From Chitinophagaceae bacterium (GTDB lineage: Bacteria; Bacteroidota; Bacteroidia; Chitinophagales; Chitinophagaceae), in NCBI GenBank assembly GCA_031976225.1, contig DALYLQ010000006.1, positions 1,485 through 15,941 of the forward strand: DNA of 14,457 bases, given 5' to 3'. This document shows, piece after piece, positions 7,205 to 13,834 of this stretch (position 1 is the stretch's first letter; every line of letters begins with the position of its first letter). The position numbers and the translations under genes are program-made. The notes beneath the pieces were generated by a model. The model worked only from the letters and a program-made list of their open reading frames with translations, did not search any database and was not told where the DNA came from.

Positions 7205-8233
7205 ATGCAACGAAAAACCTTTTTACTACAATCGGCAGCAGCACTTGGCGGTGCTTTATTATACTCCAATCAAGCTTTTACCGCAAGGAAAAAGCCAAAG
7301 AAAATCATACAACCACCTTTTTTAAAAACGGGTGATACTATTGGCATTGTAGCACCCTCTGGCTATGTTACTGAAGCTACGGTTAAGGCTGCTATAGAAC
7401 GCATTCAAGCATGGGGTTTTAACGTTGCGCTAGGTAACACCATTGGCCAACGTTGGGGCACTTTTGCCGACACCGACGAAGCCCGTGCAGCCGATGTGCA
7501 AACCATGATTAACAATAGAAACATTAAAGCTATTCTTTGTGCTCGTGGTGGCTACGGATGGACAAGAATCATGCACCGCATTAATTGGAAATTGCTACAA
7601 CAACAACCCAAGTGGATGATTGGCTTTAGCGATGCAACAGTAGCTCATAGTTACATCAACACGCATCTACACATAGCGAGTATTCACAGTAAAATGTGCA
7701 ATAGCTTCCCCGACGATTGGGCAACCGCAACACCCGAACAACAAGCTACTATTAACAGCATTGAACAAGCTATTACCGGCAAGCCACTTCGCTATAACCT
7801 GCCAACAGATACCAACAATCAATTAGGTACTGTAACAGCTCCAATTATCGGTGGCAACTTGCGTTGTATCGAAAACCTTGCAGGAACACCCTATGCACTT
7901 CAAACAGCAGGAAAAATACTTGTTCTTGAAGATGTTGAAGAACCGCGTTACAATATAGACCGTATGTTTTGGAACCTCTATCATAGCGGTGTACTAGCTT
8001 CATTAAAAGGACTTATTATTGGCGGATTCAGAGAAAAAGCAGCCACCGACCCTAACGATGAGTTTGGTTTAACACTTCCCCAAATTGTACTCGAAAAAGT
8101 ACAAGCATATAACTACCCTGTTGCATTTCAAATGCCAATTGGGCATCAACGAAATAACTTTGCCATCAAACTAGGTGTTACACATCAATTAAACGTGAAT
8201 GCCGAATATTGCAGTTTAGAAGCACTTGCGTAA
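7205..8233 (+). CDS. LD-carboxypeptidase (peptidase S66, LdcA/MccF family) of 342 aa with an N-terminal export signal.
   Basis: S66 hallmarks: GDTIGIVAPSG, IKAILCARGGYG, the nucleophile motif GFSDAT, and a C-terminal region with His and Glu. The N-terminus MQRKTFLLQSAAALGGALLYSNQAFTA looks like a Tat-like signal with RK in place of RR, or a Sec signal. Confidence 0.8.
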   Translation: MQRKTFLLQSAAALGGALLYSNQAFTARKKPKKIIQPPFLKTGDTIGIVAPSGYVTEATVKAAIERIQAWGFNVALGNTIGQRWGTFADTDEARAADVQTMINNRNIKAILCARGGYGWTRIMHRINWKLLQQQPKWMIGFSDATVAHSYINTHLHIASIHSKMCNSFPDDWATATPEQQATINSIEQAITGKPLRYNLPTDTNNQLGTVTAPIIGGNLRCIENLAGTPYALQTAGKILVLEDVEEPRYNIDRMFWNLYHSGVLASLKGLIIGGFREKAATDPNDEFGLTLPQIVLEKVQAYNYPVAFQMPIGHQRNNFAIKLGVTHQLNVNAEYCSLEALA

Positions 8234-9148
8234 ATGACAACAACCATAACTCCACCTTATTTACAACCCGGCGATACAATTGCCATTACTTGCCCCGCAG
8301 GTTTCTTACCACATCACAAGGTAGAAGCTTGTGTAGCAACTTTGCAACTTTGGGGCTTTCGTGTAATCGTTGGCAATACAGTTGGCAATCAACATCATTA
8401 TTTCGCAGGCACTATCGAAGAAAGAAAAACAGAAATTCAAAACTTCTTAAACGATACTACCATTCAAGCCATTTTATGTGGTAGAGGTGGCTACGGTGTT
8501 AGTCAGATAATTGATACGCTAAATTTTGAGGTATTCAAGCAGCATCCCAAATGGTTATTAGGATTTAGCGATATTACCCTACTGCTCAACCATGTACTAG
8601 CTAATTATCAAGTAGCAAGTATGCACTGTTCAATGGCGGCAGCATTTACAAAGGAGCAACCTCAACCATTGCATATTCAAGCAATACACACATTACTTAC
8701 GGGAGGCAAGCAGGCTATTACGCAAGCTTTCAATCAACATAATGTACAAGGCATAGGAGCCGGAACGCTTATTGGTGGCAACCTCACTTTAATGGCACAT
8801 ATAATGGGTACAAATAGTTTACCGCAAGGTAACAACTACCTACTTTTCCTAGAAGATGTAGGCGAGTATTTGTACAATATCGATCGTATGTTGCACCAAT
8901 TAAAGCGAGCTGGTTTGTGGCAGCAAGTGAAAGGCATTATCGTCGGCGGATTTACCGATATGAAAGATACTACGATACCTTACGGTAAAAGTATAAACGC
9001 TATTGTTAGCGAGCACCTGCATGCGTTGAACATACCAGTGGCATTCGATATGCCTATCAGCCACGGCGAGCCTAACTATCCTGTAAAAGTAGGCGGATAC
9101 TACCAACTACACGTACACGAAGCTGGCGCTATACTACAAGAAATGTAA
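8234..9148 (+). CDS. Second LD-carboxypeptidase (S66) paralog of 304 aa with no signal peptide, so presumably cytoplasmic.
   Basis: Its ATG directly abuts the previous TAA (..GCGTAAATG..). It has [20 protein letters not shown] and GFSDIT. It is clearly paralogous to the preceding gene. Confidence 0.8.
8976..8989 (-). repeat. Copy 6 of the recurrent motif, located inside the coding sequence: TACCTTACGGTAAA, the reverse complement of TTTACCGTAAGGTA.
   Basis: Exact 14-mer embedded in the codons for IPYGKS of the second LD-carboxypeptidase. It lies about 275 nt upstream of the fumC start. Confidence 0.5.
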
Positions 9149-10665: not shown

Positions 10666-10696
10666 GCTACACTTACGTGTAAATGATTGCAATATA

Positions 10697-10726
10697 AAAG
10701 CCCCGTTATCAAGCGGGGCTTTTGCT
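10697..10726 (+). terminator. Rho-independent terminator of fumC.
   Basis: Stem AAAAGCCCCG (10697-10706), loop TTATCAAG, stem CGGGGCTTTT (10715-10724). Confidence 0.8.
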
Positions 10727-11158: not shown

Positions 11159-13075
11159 ATGACATCGTTCTTATGGAGCTATGGATGGCTCTTTGTATTA
11201 ATGCTAGCATTGATTTTGTACAAACAAGTTTTGCGGATTTTCTTTGGTATGGTGATTGTACCCGAAGATAAAATTGGCTTAGTTACGAAAAAATTTGTGC
11301 TCTTTGGTGAACCTAAAGCCCTACCCGATGGGCGTATTATTGCTACTAAAGGTGAAGCGGGCTTTCAAGCTACAACACTAGCCCCTGGCTTGTATTGGTG
11401 GATGTGGCCTTGGCAATATGGTATTGACATGCATTCGTTCACGGTAATTCCGGAGGGTAAAATTGGCTTAGTACTTTCAAACGATGGTGCTGAACTTCCA
11501 ACAGGTAATATTTTAGCTCGAAAAGTAGAGTGTGATAACTTTCAAGACACAACTGCATTTCTTAGTAATGGTGGACAAAAAGGTAGACAAACACATGTGT
11601 TAACACCAGGTACCTACCGTATTAACACCTTTGCTTTTACTGTTACCATTGCAGAAATGACCATCATCAATGAAAATAAGGTGGGTGTTGTTACGACTTT
11701 AGATGGTGAACCATTACCTAGTAATCAAATTGCTGGTAGGCATATTGAAGGGCATAACAACTTCCAAGACGTTGATAGCTTCTTGGTACACGGGGGTAAT
11801 AGAGGCTTACAACCACAAGTAATTTTAGCAGGTAGCTACTATATTAATCCATGGGCTATTCAAATTGAGGAAATTTGGATGACAGAAGTACCTATTGGTA
11901 ATGTTGGTGTGGTAATCAGCTATATCGGAGAGGAAGGAACCGACTTAACAGGCGATGGGTTTAAGCATGGCAATATTGTAAGTAAAGGCTTTAAAGGTGT
12001 GTGGATGGAACCTTTAGGTCCGGGTAAATATCCCGTTAATAAATATACCATGAAGGTTGAATTGGTACCTACCACAAACTTAGTACTCAATTGGGCCAAT
12101 GCTCGCAGTGAAGCACATGCCCTTGATAAGAACCTAAGTACTATTACAGTGCGTAGTAAAGATGGTTTCCCTTTTAACCTAGATGTAGCACAGATTATAC
12201 ACGTACCAGCCAATGAAGCTCCTAAGGTAATTGCACGTTTTGGTAGCATGACCAATTTAGTAAGTCAGGTACTAGAACCAACTATTGGTAACTACTTCCG
12301 TAACTCTGCTCAAGACAGTGATGTGATTTCGTTCTTAACAACACGTAAAGAACGCCAACAAGCCGCTAAAAATCATATCAAAGAAGTATTAGATGAGTAT
12401 AATGTTTATGCAGTAGACACTTTAATTGGTGATATTGTTCCGCCCGAAGCACTCATGAAAACCTTAACGGATCGCAAAATTGCTGAGGAAGAACAAAAAA
12501 CCTATCAAACCCAACGTATGGCACAAGAGCAGCGCCAAGGAGTTGAAAAAGAAACGGCTATTGCTGATATGCAGAAAGAAATTGTAAAAGCGCAACAAAG
12601 TGTAGAAATTGCACAGCGTACCGCCGATGCAGCCGTTAAAAAAGCTGAGGGTGATGCTACTAGTTTAAAACTGCAAGTAAATGCCGAAGCTGAGGCCACA
12701 AAAATGCGAGCTATCGCTGAAGCAGAAGCTACTAAAGCTAGAGCCGGAGCACAAGCAGAAGCTACCAAACTAAATGCTTCTGCCGATGCTGAACGTATTT
12801 CAAAAACGGGCCTAGCAGAAGCCGAAAAAATCATGGCAATTGGTAAGAGTACCGCCGAAGCCTACGAATTACAAGTAAAAGCTATGGGTAACGATAACTT
12901 CACTCGATTCAAAATAACGGAAGCCATTGGTAAAGAAAACATAAAAATAATTCCAGATGTTTTAATTAGTGGCGGCAATGGCACCGATGGAAGCATTAGT
13001 GGCTTGCTCGGTTTGAAATTAATGGATATGCTTCAAGATAAAAATACACTTGAAACACAATCTACTAATAGCTAA
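11159..13075 (+). CDS. Flotillin-family SPFH/band-7 membrane scaffold protein of 638 aa. It has an N-terminal TM anchor, four tandem 60-75-aa repeats, an SPFH core and a C-terminal Ala/Glu-rich flotillin coiled coil.
   Basis: N-terminal helix SYGWLFVLMLALILY. Repeats begin VPEDKIGLV, IPEGKIGLV, INENKVGVV and VPIGNVGVV, each with LP.G.I...NFQD..FL..GG..G.Q..V..G.Y.IN. SPFH core DVISFLTTRKERQQAAKNHIKEVLDEYNVYAVDTLIGDIVPPEALMKTLTDRKIAEEE. EA repeats AEAEATKMRAIAEAEATKARAGAQAEATK. Confidence 0.85.
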   Translation: MTSFLWSYGWLFVLMLALILYKQVLRIFFGMVIVPEDKIGLVTKKFVLFGEPKALPDGRIIATKGEAGFQATTLAPGLYWWMWPWQYGIDMHSFTVIPEGKIGLVLSNDGAELPTGNILARKVECDNFQDTTAFLSNGGQKGRQTHVLTPGTYRINTFAFTVTIAEMTIINENKVGVVTTLDGEPLPSNQIAGRHIEGHNNFQDVDSFLVHGGNRGLQPQVILAGSYYINPWAIQIEEIWMTEVPIGNVGVVISYIGEEGTDLTGDGFKHGNIVSKGFKGVWMEPLGPGKYPVNKYTMKVELVPTTNLVLNWANARSEAHALDKNLSTITVRSKDGFPFNLDVAQIIHVPANEAPKVIARFGSMTNLVSQVLEPTIGNYFRNSAQDSDVISFLTTRKERQQAAKNHIKEVLDEYNVYAVDTLIGDIVPPEALMKTLTDRKIAEEEQKTYQTQRMAQEQRQGVEKETAIADMQKEIVKAQQSVEIAQRTADAAVKKAEGDATSLKLQVNAEAEATKMRAIAEAEATKARAGAQAEATKLNASADAERISKTGLAEAEKIMAIGKSTAEAYELQVKAMGNDNFTRFKITEAIGKENIKIIPDVLISGGNGTDGSISGLLGLKLMDMLQDKNTLETQSTNS

Positions 13076-13080
13076 AATAT

Positions 13081-13099
13081 GGGGCGGCTTAGCCGCCCC
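13081..13099 (+). other. GC-rich stem-loop of GGGGCGG, a 5-nt loop and CCGCCCC. It is a possible weak terminator or RNA-processing element between the flotillin gene and the lipoprotein gene.
   Basis: Seen directly in the sequence. No T-tract follows on the + strand, so rho-independent termination here is uncertain. Confidence 0.4.
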
Positions 13100-13151
13100 A
13101 CAAGCAAAAACCATCCAGAAAGTATTTAATTTGATACATCAACATAAACAC

Positions 13152-13475
13152 ATGTCACGTATTACAACTACTACCCTAGCTGCAATATTGCTAGTACTAT
13201 TTAGCTGCAACGATAAAAATGAAGATATTACGGAAGATGTTAACCGTAAAGGAGCTGTTGAAAGCAGCATGAGTGTTGAACATATTGATAGCCTGCACGA
13301 CCTACTCATTACCAAACATACCGTTTGGCACAATGGAGCCGTTGCAAGGGTATTTGAACATAGAGATACCTTACCGGCTCTCGGCGATACACTCACTGAA
13401 GCTGAAAACAACGAAGGCGATACCAAACAAATTCTAGTGAAAAAAGATTATGAAATTTTCATTACCATTAAGTAA
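13152..13475 (+). CDS. Small hypothetical lipoprotein, 107 aa.
   Basis: The track ORF starts at TTG 13050 and overlaps the flotillin stop. The internal ATG at 13152 gives MSRITTTTLAAILLVLFSC NDKNED, a signal peptide ending in a lipobox-like LFSC and then an acidic mature N-terminus. I see no recognisable domain. Confidence 0.5.
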   Translation: MSRITTTTLAAILLVLFSCNDKNEDITEDVNRKGAVESSMSVEHIDSLHDLLITKHTVWHNGAVARVFEHRDTLPALGDTLTEAENNEGDTKQILVKKDYEIFITIK

Positions 13476-13489
13476 CTACGCAACAACAC

Positions 13490-13834
13490 ATGAAAAAATC
13501 TAAACATATAGAACTAGTATTAATTACCGCAGCACTGGCAAGCTGTAACCAACCCAAATACAAAAACAACGAGTGGGAAAGCGGTAACAAAACCTATGTT
13601 CGTGCCGATAGCACAGCACCATATACGCGTACACATTACCACGGTGGTGGTGTAGGCCGCTGGTTCTATGCCTTCAGACCTTATGGCGAGTATAACAGTT
13701 TTCAAAATGGCTACAGTAAAGCTGGTTATTATTCTAACGCTATCAGCGAAAAAAGCAACATTGGTTATAACAACAATAAATTCGGCATTGTACGTGGCGG
13801 CTTTGGTCGTAGCTCTTACAGTGCTAGTAGCTAA
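13490..13834 (+). CDS. Small Gly/Tyr/Asn-rich lipoprotein of 114 aa. It may be a DUF1190 (YgiB/YjfM)-like partner of the downstream ATP-grasp gene.
   Basis: MKKSKHIELVLITAALASC NQ.. has a lipoprotein signal and lipobox LASC. The body is low-complexity and Gly/Tyr-rich, ending GIVRGGFGRSSYSASS. It sits directly upstream of a YgiC-like gene, as ygiB and yjfM do in enterobacteria. The homology is inferred and not verified. Confidence 0.5.
   Translation: MKKSKHIELVLITAALASCNQPKYKNNEWESGNKTYVRADSTAPYTRTHYHGGGVGRWFYAFRPYGEYNSFQNGYSKAGYYSNAISEKSNIGYNNNKFGIVRGGFGRSSYSASS

What the first reader, a model, noticed from the sequence alone, without database searches (positions are those of the whole stretch)
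11159..13075. Flotillin/SPFH protein with four tandem N-terminal repeats preceding the SPFH core
Between the TM anchor and the SPFH core there are four consecutive 60-75-aa units, at residues ~33-97, ~98-170, ~171-245 and ~246-307. Units 2 and 3 align at about 35% identity (IPEGKIGLV...LP.GNI....NFQD..FL.NGG.KG.Q..VL.PG.Y.IN). Units 1 and 4 are shorter versions lacking the FL..GG..G insert. Each unit resembles the N-terminal beta-hairpin segment that begins an SPFH domain. B. subtilis FloT and E. coli YqiK have only one such segment. The expanded repeat array suggests an unusual extended or oligomer-interface architecture.
Basis: partly seen in the sequence, partly recalled or inferred. Interest (0 to 1): 0.6.

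Follow-up and report, generated by a model that had tools for sequence, protein, structure and literature searches.

The report
Membrane SPFH protein with vault-like repeats
This gene encodes a membrane-anchored SPFH ("band 7") scaffold protein that has copied its own first beta-subdomain three extra times; the predicted shape resembles one subunit of the eukaryotic vault particle, and the protein belongs to a widespread, unstudied bacterial family carrying 2 to 13 or more such repeats.

Summary
ORF 11159-13075 (638 aa) has an N-terminal TM helix, then four homologous units of about 70 aa (aa 30-96, 97-169, 170-243, 244-312), an SPFH alpha/beta core, a long EA-rich helix and a C-terminal tail. 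Unit 2 vs unit 3 gives a shuffle z-score of 28.8. Family profiles link all four units, with P from 1e-7 to 1e-16. Unit 4 is the start of the Pfam Band_7 match, so the protein has three extra copies of the native SPFH N-terminal subdomain. No Pfam model covers the extra units.

An AlphaFold2 model (pLDDT 91) shows the same five-strand unit four times. [quoted passage not shown] Foldseek aligns whole MVP chains across the entire model, whereas other SPFH proteins cover only about half of it. No sequence similarity to MVP was detectable.

Among 1.84 billion representative proteins, 856 match the repeat region at E<=1e-10. Arrays follow an A^n-B pattern, from AB (this protein) to A12-B plus a VWA domain in a cyanobacterium. 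Orthologues are 75-84% identical across Bacteroidota.

I infer a cytoplasm-facing, membrane-anchored SPFH cage whose wall is heightened by the repeats. I rate it a new variant of a known kind.

The parts
11159..13075 (+). Whole gene: 638-aa membrane-anchored SPFH protein (stop codon included).
   Evidence: ORF list. Pfam Band_7 at aa 243-456. More than 8000 homologues, the top 120 being 81-94% identical and 631-653 aa long.
11168..11221 (+). N-terminal transmembrane anchor, about aa 4-21 (FLWSYGWLFVLMLALILY). There is no K/R before it; K22 and R26 follow it.
   Evidence: Read directly from the sequence. The same charge pattern occurs in diverse homologues (alignment A5). AF2 run 1 predicts a helix at aa 2-29. 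The N-out/C-in orientation is inferred from the positive-inside rule.
11246..11446 (+). Unit 1 (aa 30-96): short repeat unit without the helix insert.
   Evidence: u1-u2 z = 11.3. u1 profile vs long-unit profile P = 1.6e-16. The model shows strands at aa 32-34, 38-44, 68-74, 77-79 and 87-93.
11447..11665 (+). Unit 2 (aa 97-169): long 'type A' unit with the motifs VEC-NFQD and FL-NGGQKG-Q. This is the unit type that is amplified in larger relatives.
   Evidence: u2-u3 z = 28.8 and P = 2e-16. Unit HMM hit at 94-169. Type A classification. Model: five strands plus helix 131-136.
11666..11887 (+). Unit 3 (aa 170-243): long 'type B' unit with the motifs GH-NFQD and (L/I)NPW. This type usually (51 of 89 arrays) sits directly before the SPFH domain.
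   Evidence: Unit HMM hit at 167-243. Type B is the last unit in 51 of 89 arrays; another 14 end in a B-like unit. Model: five strands plus helix 205-210.
11888..12094 (+). Unit 4 (aa 244-312): the native N-terminal beta-subdomain of the SPFH domain, called 'SPFH1' in cryo-EM papers. It is the template from which the repeats derive.
   Evidence: It lies inside the Pfam Band_7 match 243-456. Long-unit profile vs u4 P = 2.4e-15. It has the same strand pattern in the model.
12095..12445 (+). SPFH alpha/beta core (aa 313-429).
12446..12883 (+). Long Ala/Glu-rich helix (aa 430-575, with AEAEATK repeats). It is the equivalent of the SPFH coiled-coil wall or vault cap-helix.
   Evidence: Helices at 430-460 and 466-575 in AF2 run 1 and at 430-469 in run 2. 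Weak NCBIfam hits to the helical parts of TolA, HflC and FloT. Sequence.
12884..13072 (+). C-terminal tail (aa 576-638), with the conserved 'IKIIPD' motif and a Gly-rich stretch. It is the probable cap-closing segment.
   Evidence: Conserved positions K596, P599, G615 and G618 in alignment A1. The role is inferred by analogy with SPFH cage caps and was not tested.
10696..10724 (+). GC-rich hairpin plus T-run after the upstream fumarase gene. It suggests that the SPFH gene is transcribed from its own promoter.
   Evidence: Read directly from the sequence: AAAAGCCCCG-ttatcaag-CGGGGCTTTTG. Function not tested.
13078..13102 (.). Stem-loop of 11 bp (8 GC pairs) starting 3 nt after the stop codon.
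   Evidence: Terminator-like scan. The scan scored it on the minus strand, so its function for the plus-strand gene is inferred.

Best explanation
Shown:
- The gene encodes an SPFH-family (Band 7) membrane protein.
- Its native N-terminal beta-subdomain, the part that normally sits between the membrane anchor and the alpha/beta core, has been tandemly duplicated.
- The order of parts is: TM helix, short unit, type A unit, type B unit, native unit plus SPFH core, long EA-rich helix, C-terminal tail.
- The monomer is predicted with high confidence to be an elongated string of four like-folded five-strand domains followed by the SPFH core and helix.
- This is the domain order and fold of the major vault protein (repeats, then the SPFH 'shoulder', then the cap helix).

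Inferred:
- Like all structurally characterised SPFH proteins, it oligomerises side by side into a ring or dome on the membrane.
- The bulk of the protein faces the cytoplasm (positive-inside rule).
- The extra repeats pack laterally, as vault repeats do, and raise the cage wall. I estimate roughly 2-3 nm per unit from vault geometry; I did not measure this.
- The result would be a 'half-vault' sitting on the inner face of the cytoplasmic membrane, enclosing a membrane patch plus a taller cytoplasmic chamber than ordinary SPFH cages have.
- Repeat number (the n in A^n-B) would set the chamber height in different lineages.
- The client or cargo is unknown.
For: - Repeats are real and homologous to each other and to the start of the SPFH domain.
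- Pfam Band_7 matches only aa 243-456, and no family covers the extra units.
- The AF2 model of aa 28-470 has pLDDT 91 and pTM 0.77, with the same beta1-beta5 pattern four times.
- Foldseek aligns MVP chains over 500-620 columns, with TMq up to 0.48 (4v60_A, 9bw5_A). Other SPFH proteins give about 230 columns and TMq 0.28-0.37.
- The repeats are as conserved as the SPFH core: 48-54% vs 52-54% identity to the window protein across 60 diverse homologues.
- The family has variable repeat number, always upstream of an SPFH core, in an A^n-B pattern.
- Charges flanking the TM helix favour a cytoplasmic C-terminal bulk. This is the charge pattern I recall for E. coli QmcA (from memory, not checked here).
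- An ECOD-based study classes the N-terminal subdomain of ordinary archaeal SPFH proteins as a single 'MVP repeat' (PMC13607799).
- All solved SPFH proteins form oligomeric cages (PMC13100048, PMC12624060).
Against: - No oligomer was modelled or observed, so lateral packing of the repeats is an analogy.
- No sequence similarity to MVP repeats or to the whole MVP could be detected, and there are no Pfam Vault hits.
- The first AF2 run, with a shallow alignment, failed (pLDDT 39.8). The good model therefore depends on the alignment of 60 sequences.
- I could not inspect coordinates, so per-domain superpositions and inter-domain geometry are known only through the search scores.
- Topology is predicted from charge bias only.
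- There is no conserved neighbouring gene to suggest a client or partner.
Confidence: 0.55

Rival explanations
1. The repeats are not a cage wall. They would form a flexible stalk or a set of binding modules that hold the SPFH ring away from the membrane, or that recruit specific clients (protein, lipid head-group or nucleotide). Repeat number would then tune reach or valency.
For: - Strictly conserved polar or reactive residues inside the units could be ligand or interface sites: Cys125 in type A units, His199 in type B, and the FQD and GG-G-Q motifs.
- Giant relatives add a C-terminal VWA domain, a typical protein-interaction module.
- There is no oligomer evidence for wall formation.
Against: - pTM 0.77 for a four-unit string implies defined inter-unit packing rather than a floppy linker.
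- Rigid-body superposition of 209 residues on three or more consecutive vault repeats shows the same head-to-tail geometry that builds the vault wall.
Confidence: 0.25
2. The protein is oriented like HflK/C, with the repeats, the SPFH domain and the helix in the periplasm. The repeats would extend the cage toward the outer membrane or peptidoglycan.
For: - HflK/C and (probably) prokaryotic prohibitins face the periplasm (PMC2636767).
- An invariant Cys in type A units could be compatible with an oxidising compartment.
Against: - No K/R precedes the TM helix, while K22 and R26 follow it, and the same holds in diverse homologues. The positive-inside rule therefore gives N-out/C-in.
- There is no signal-peptidase or lipobox motif.
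- There is a single unpaired conserved Cys per type A unit rather than Cys pairs.
Confidence: 0.1
3. This is an ordinary flotillin (FloT/YqiK orthologue) whose long N-terminal region only appears repetitive by chance or low complexity.
For: - JGI annotates many homologues as 'YqiK', and NCBI annotates some as 'flotillin family protein'.
- The helix is EA-rich, as in flotillins.
Against: - The repeat statistics are far beyond chance.
- The FloT equivalog scores 16.7 bits against a cut-off of 700.
- There is no Flot domain hit.
- There is no NfeD neighbour.
- Band_7 covers only aa 243-456.
Confidence: 0.02

Closest known systems
Major vault protein (MVP; PDB 4V60, 9BW5, 3GF5)
   Same: - Same domain order: tandem small beta-repeat domains, then the SPFH 'shoulder', then a long helix and a short C-terminal segment.
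- Whole-chain Foldseek alignments span the entire model.
   Different: - No detectable sequence similarity and no Pfam Vault or MVP_shoulder hits.
- Four units instead of nine.
- The long units are about 72 aa with a short helix insert, against about 55 aa in MVP.
- An N-terminal TM anchor occupies the end that MVP uses to join two half-vaults, so at most a membrane-bound half-cage is possible.
- It is bacterial.
Canonical SPFH cage proteins (QmcA, HflK/C, stomatin, prohibitin, erlin, flotillin)
   Same: - Band_7 domain.
- An N-terminal membrane anchor, an SPFH core, a long helix and a C-terminal tail.
- Closest by sequence is QmcA, E = 1.7e-5.
- The TM charge pattern matches what I recall for cytoplasm-facing QmcA (from memory, not checked here).
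   Different: - They have one N-terminal beta-subdomain; this protein has four in tandem.
- There is no NfeD partner gene here, unlike QmcA-YbbJ, YqiK-YqiJ and FloT-YuaF (PMC2636767).
Putative bacterial MVP homologues (Saprospira, Microscilla, Plesiocystis, Herpetosiphon, Moorea; Daly et al. 2013 PMC3762200; bioRxiv 10.1101/872010) and archaeal MVP-like proteins (PMC12962969, PMC13607799)
   Same: They are prokaryotic proteins that combine MVP-like repeats with a band 7/shoulder domain and a coiled coil.
   Different: - Those proteins were found by BLAST or structure searches starting from eukaryotic MVP, and they are reported from only a few bacteria.
- The present family is not retrievable from MVP by sequence.
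- It is TM-anchored.
- Whether any of the published bacterial proteins (for example Herpetosiphon A9AUD4, annotated 'band 7') belong to this family was not tested.

Membership tests
SPFH / Band 7 superfamily (Pfam PF01145) | Significant match to the Band_7 profile above the gathering threshold. | tested here: met
   82.2 bits against a cut-off of 23.6, aa 243-456, profile positions 2-175 of 176.
SPFH / Band 7 superfamily (Pfam PF01145) | SPFH alpha/beta fold followed by a long helix. | tested here: met
SPFH / Band 7 superfamily (Pfam PF01145) | Assembly into a large homo-oligomeric ring or cage on a membrane. | not testable with these tools
   No multimer prediction or experiment was available. 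Inferred from solved family members (PMC13100048, PMC12624060).
Bacterial flotillin (FloT/YqiK, 'SPFH2' of Hinderhofer et al.) | Match to the FloT equivalog or flotillin-specific profile. | tested here: not met
   NCBIfam NF058507 FloT scores 16.7 bits against a cut-off of 700, on the helix only. No Pfam Flot domain hit at E<=1.
Bacterial flotillin (FloT/YqiK, 'SPFH2' of Hinderhofer et al.) | Operon with an NfeD-family partner (YqiJ/YuaF). | tested here: not met
   The window has no such ORF next to the gene. No neighbour family is shared by more than 22 of the 80 related loci, and those shared are lineage-specific synteny.
Bacterial flotillin (FloT/YqiK, 'SPFH2' of Hinderhofer et al.) | EA-rich coiled-coil region C-terminal to the SPFH domain. 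| tested here: met
   AEAEATK repeats in a helix spanning about aa 430-575.
Major vault protein family | Sequence match to Vault repeat or MVP_shoulder profiles, or to MVP itself. | tested here: not met
   No Pfam Vault or MVP_shoulder hits for the window protein, its units or giant relatives. hhalign of the family and unit profiles against the verified human MVP sequence was negative.
Major vault protein family | Tandem vault-repeat fold N-terminal to an SPFH shoulder and a cap helix. | tested here: met
Major vault protein family | Soluble particle closed by N-terminal contacts between two half-shells. | tested here: not met
   The N-terminus is a hydrophobic TM helix, so the MVP-type waist contact is not available. 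Assembly itself was not tested.

The most novel reading that the evidence does not exclude
This family (TM, short unit, A^n-B repeats, SPFH core, helix) builds membrane-anchored 'half-vaults' in bacteria. Within one protein it also preserves sequence-level evidence that vault-type repeats arise by serial duplication of the SPFH N-terminal subdomain. On this reading it shows how the eukaryotic vault wall could have evolved from an ordinary SPFH cage, and it may share ancestry with MVP rather than being an independent parallel expansion.
Probability: 0.25. Interest if true: 0.85.

Novelty: new variant of a known kind. Interest (0 to 1): 0.6.

Why it matters
SPFH cages (flotillin, stomatin, prohibitin, HflK/C) and the vault are now seen as related architectures. 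[quoted passage not shown]

This window's protein belongs to an abundant, highly conserved and experimentally untouched bacterial family. In it, the repeats are demonstrably copies of the SPFH domain's own first subdomain, and copy number varies from 2 to 13 or more.

That offers three things:
1. A concrete and testable route for the origin of vault-like walls.
2. A natural 'ruler' series for asking how wall height affects what an SPFH cage encloses.
3. A tractable bacterial system, since Flavobacterium species carry an orthologue about 80% identical.

It also flags a domain of about 72 aa that Pfam does not yet describe.

Tried and rejected
- AF2 on the full-length protein with 39 close homologues failed (pLDDT 39.8). 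I repeated it on aa 28-470 with 60 diverse sequences.
- phmmer of the protein against PDB sequences found nothing. A unit profile against PDB sequences gave only a chance calmodulin hit, E = 1.1.
- Sequence links to MVP were all negative: family profile vs human MVP; unit profile vs MVP; unit profiles vs an alignment of the nine human MVP repeats. The motif resemblance I saw by eye ('GPG-Y-P...VEVV') is therefore only an impression.
- Pfam on isolated units at E<=10 gave only noise.
- PADLOC defence models gave no hit.
It worked with the 10-sequence alignment A5.
- The search for homologous proteins with the 76-aa unit profile returned only short fragments and was uninformative.
- The AFDB Foldseek library was unavailable.
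- The search for a conserved operon partner (NfeD or other) was negative.
- I tried to map the family to the SPFH1-12 scheme of Hinderhofer et al. F. johnsoniae is listed with SPFH2a, SPFH7 and SPFH8 members, but I could not tell which accession is the orthologue.

Full report
**1. The observation**

The ORF at 11159-13075 (+) encodes 638 aa. Pfam finds a single domain, Band_7/SPFH, at aa 243-456 (82 bits, cut-off 23.6). Nothing is found in aa 1-242.

- u2-u3: z = 28.8. Identity is 41% over 75 columns.
- u1-u2: z = 11.3.
- u2-u4: z = 8.4.
- u1-u3: z = 7.8.
- u3-u4: z = 5.3.
- u1-u4: z = 2.2, not significant alone.

Profile-profile comparison on a shallow family alignment gave u2-u3 P = 2e-16 and u1-u2 P = 1e-7. 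With deep profiles (387 long units from 150 diverse proteins, and u1 and u4 slices of a 60-sequence alignment), one search gave:
- Long unit vs u4: P = 2.4e-15.
- Long unit vs u1: P = 1.6e-16.
- u1 vs u4: P = 7e-8.

Because u4 is the first 65-70 residues of the Band_7 match, the correct description is three extra tandem copies of the SPFH domain's own N-terminal subdomain, plus the native copy.

**2. Anatomy**

- aa 4-21 form a hydrophobic helix with no K/R before it and K22/R26 after it. The same pattern holds in distant homologues.
- The units follow at aa 30-96, 97-169, 170-243 and 244-312.
- The SPFH alpha/beta core is at aa 313-429.
- A long EA-rich helix with AEAEATK repeats runs to about aa 575.
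- The C-terminal tail has a conserved 'IKIIPD' motif and a Gly-rich stretch.

A first AF2 run with 39 close homologues failed (pLDDT 39.8). A second run on aa 28-470 with 60 diverse sequences gave pLDDT 91.0 and pTM 0.77. In that model each unit shows the same pattern: beta (3 residues), beta (7), a short helix in units 2 and 3 only, beta (7), beta (3), beta (7). After the fourth unit the chain continues into the SPFH core and helix.

**3. What the fold resembles**

Foldseek agrees. MVP chains align over 500-620 columns, with TMq 0.48 for 4v60_A and 9bw5_A. All other SPFH proteins align over about 230 columns, with TMq 0.28-0.37.

I verified my copy of the human MVP sequence against the PDB; all 852 residues are identical. 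I then looked for sequence similarity and found none: family profile vs MVP, unit profile vs MVP, and unit profiles vs the nine MVP repeats were all negative. There are also no Pfam Vault hits. The resemblance is structural and architectural, not a family membership.

Independent literature fits this picture. An ECOD-based survey classes the N-terminal subdomain of ordinary archaeal SPFH proteins as one 'MVP repeat' (H-group 3529.1) followed by SPFH, and describes the vault as an elaboration with eight repeats (PMC13607799).

**4. The family**

Searching aa 30-245 against 1.84 billion cluster representatives gave 1580 hits at E<=1e-3, 856 at E<=1e-10 and 201 at E<=1e-30. The best hits are much larger proteins: 1802, 1638 and 1793 aa, with 11, 9 and 13 matched stretches.

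A unit HMM counts 1 to 13 long units per protein among the 150 listed; the single-unit cases are all short sequences with no SPFH core detected. In every sequence where an SPFH core was detected, the units lie upstream of it.

The units fall into two types:
- Type A has the motifs VEC-NFQD and INT-LF.
- Type B has the motifs GH-NFQD and LNPWF.

Arrays read A^n-B. The window protein is AB, the commonest form (28 of 86 classified). Others are AAB, AAAB and so on, up to A12-B. Growth is therefore by amplification of the A unit, while B stays next to the SPFH domain.

The giants also carry a C-terminal VWA domain. P0121 comes from the cyanobacterium Symploca. A six-unit form is common in Geomonas.

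No Pfam model covers the unit, and no solved structure matches it by sequence.

Orthologues of the window protein are 75-84% identical across Chitinophagaceae, Flavobacterium (including F. psychrophilum and F. columnare), Mucilaginibacter, Pedobacter, Spirosoma and even Armatimonadota MAGs. Databases name them only 'SPFH domain-containing', 'flotillin family' or 'YqiK'.

The repeats are as conserved as the core, so they are under selection.

**5. Context**

The gene lies between a class II fumarase and small ORFs. A GC hairpin plus T-run follows the fumarase gene (10696-10724), and a stem of 11 bp follows the SPFH stop codon (13078-13102). Neighbours are not conserved across 80 related loci, and there is no NfeD-type partner. 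PADLOC finds nothing. The gene looks like a stand-alone unit.

**6. Mechanism**

Shown: the gene encodes an SPFH protein with a tandemly duplicated N-terminal subdomain, and the predicted monomer has vault-like domain order and repeat fold.

Inferred:
- It oligomerises into a ring or dome, as every solved SPFH protein does (PMC13100048, PMC12624060).
- The positive-inside rule puts the bulk of the protein in the cytoplasm. I recall the same arrangement for QmcA; that is from memory and was not checked here.
- The repeats pack side by side as in the vault barrel and raise the wall. The result would be a membrane-anchored half-vault whose height depends on repeat number.

The client is unknown. 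A taller chamber could accommodate large cytoplasmic domains of membrane proteins such as FtsH, but that is speculation.

Rivals:
- The repeats are a stalk or binding modules. The invariant Cys in A units, the His in B units and the VWA domain in giants point that way.
- The orientation is periplasmic. The charge bias argues against it.
- It is an ordinary flotillin without real repeats. This is refuted.

**7. Comparison and novelty**

The protein is a member of the SPFH superfamily. It is not demonstrably a FloT/YqiK flotillin: the equivalog scores far below its cut-off, there is no Flot domain, there is no NfeD neighbour, and the closest solved relative by sequence is QmcA at E = 1.7e-5. It is not an MVP family member by sequence.

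It probably works like an SPFH cage and looks like a vault subunit. Published bacterial 'MVP homologues' are few and were found starting from eukaryotic MVP (PMC3762200; 10.1101/872010; PMC12962969). I found no paper describing this TM-anchored, variable-repeat family.

I rate it a new variant of a known kind, of moderate to high interest. It gives sequence-level evidence that vault-type repeats can arise by duplication of the SPFH N-terminal subdomain. It also points to an abundant and tractable bacterial system for testing what wall height does in SPFH cages.

Noticed in passing
window 11531-11533 (Cys125) and 11753-11755 (His199); alignments A4 and A5: Type A units carry an invariant Cys in 'VEC-NFQD'. 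Type B units have Gly-His at the equivalent place ('GH-NFQD'). The motifs F-Q-D and G-G-x-x-G-x-Q are almost invariant across 150 diverse proteins. These could mark a ligand, metal or inter-subunit site.
   Followed up: no
P0121, P0122, P0123 (relatives, not in the window): Giant family members (1638-1802 aa, 11-13 long units) end in a von Willebrand factor A domain after the coiled coil. P0121 is from the cyanobacterium Symploca sp. SIO2E6 and is annotated only as 'VWA domain-containing protein'.
   Followed up: partly
loci L001-L080: Orthologues are 75-84% identical across different classes of Bacteroidota and in Armatimonadota/Chthonomonas MAGs. That is unusually high for such distances and suggests very strong constraint or lateral transfer. 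L003 is labelled Methylophilus rhizosphaerae (a proteobacterial MAG) but carries an 83% identical copy, which is probably a mis-binned contig.
   Followed up: no
window 13152-13475 and 13490-13834 (+): Two small ORFs lie downstream. The first, read from Met35 of the listed ORF, starts 'MSRITTTTLAAILLVLFSCNDK', a lipoprotein-like signal with a lipobox Cys. Neither has a Pfam hit (only the first was scanned). Both recur near the SPFH gene in 5 of 80 related loci, though not always immediately downstream.
   Followed up: partly
window 7205-8233 and 8234-9148 (+): Two adjacent LD-carboxypeptidase (Peptidase_S66) paralogues lie in tandem with no gap between them: the first ORF ends, stop codon included, at 8233 and the second starts at 8234.
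   Followed up: no
BFVD hits A0A3G5A4K1 and A0A3G5A5B7 (Harvfovirus sp.): Two giant-virus 'prohibitin/SPFH domain' proteins (802 and 507 aa) align with the model over 591 and 446 columns, far more than other viral SPFH proteins (about 230). They probably also carry repeat arrays ahead of the SPFH domain.
   Followed up: no
window 13078-13102: A perfect stem of 11 bp (8 GC pairs) starts 3 nt after the SPFH stop codon. The scan scored it as a minus-strand terminator, although no convincing minus-strand gene ends there.
   Followed up: no
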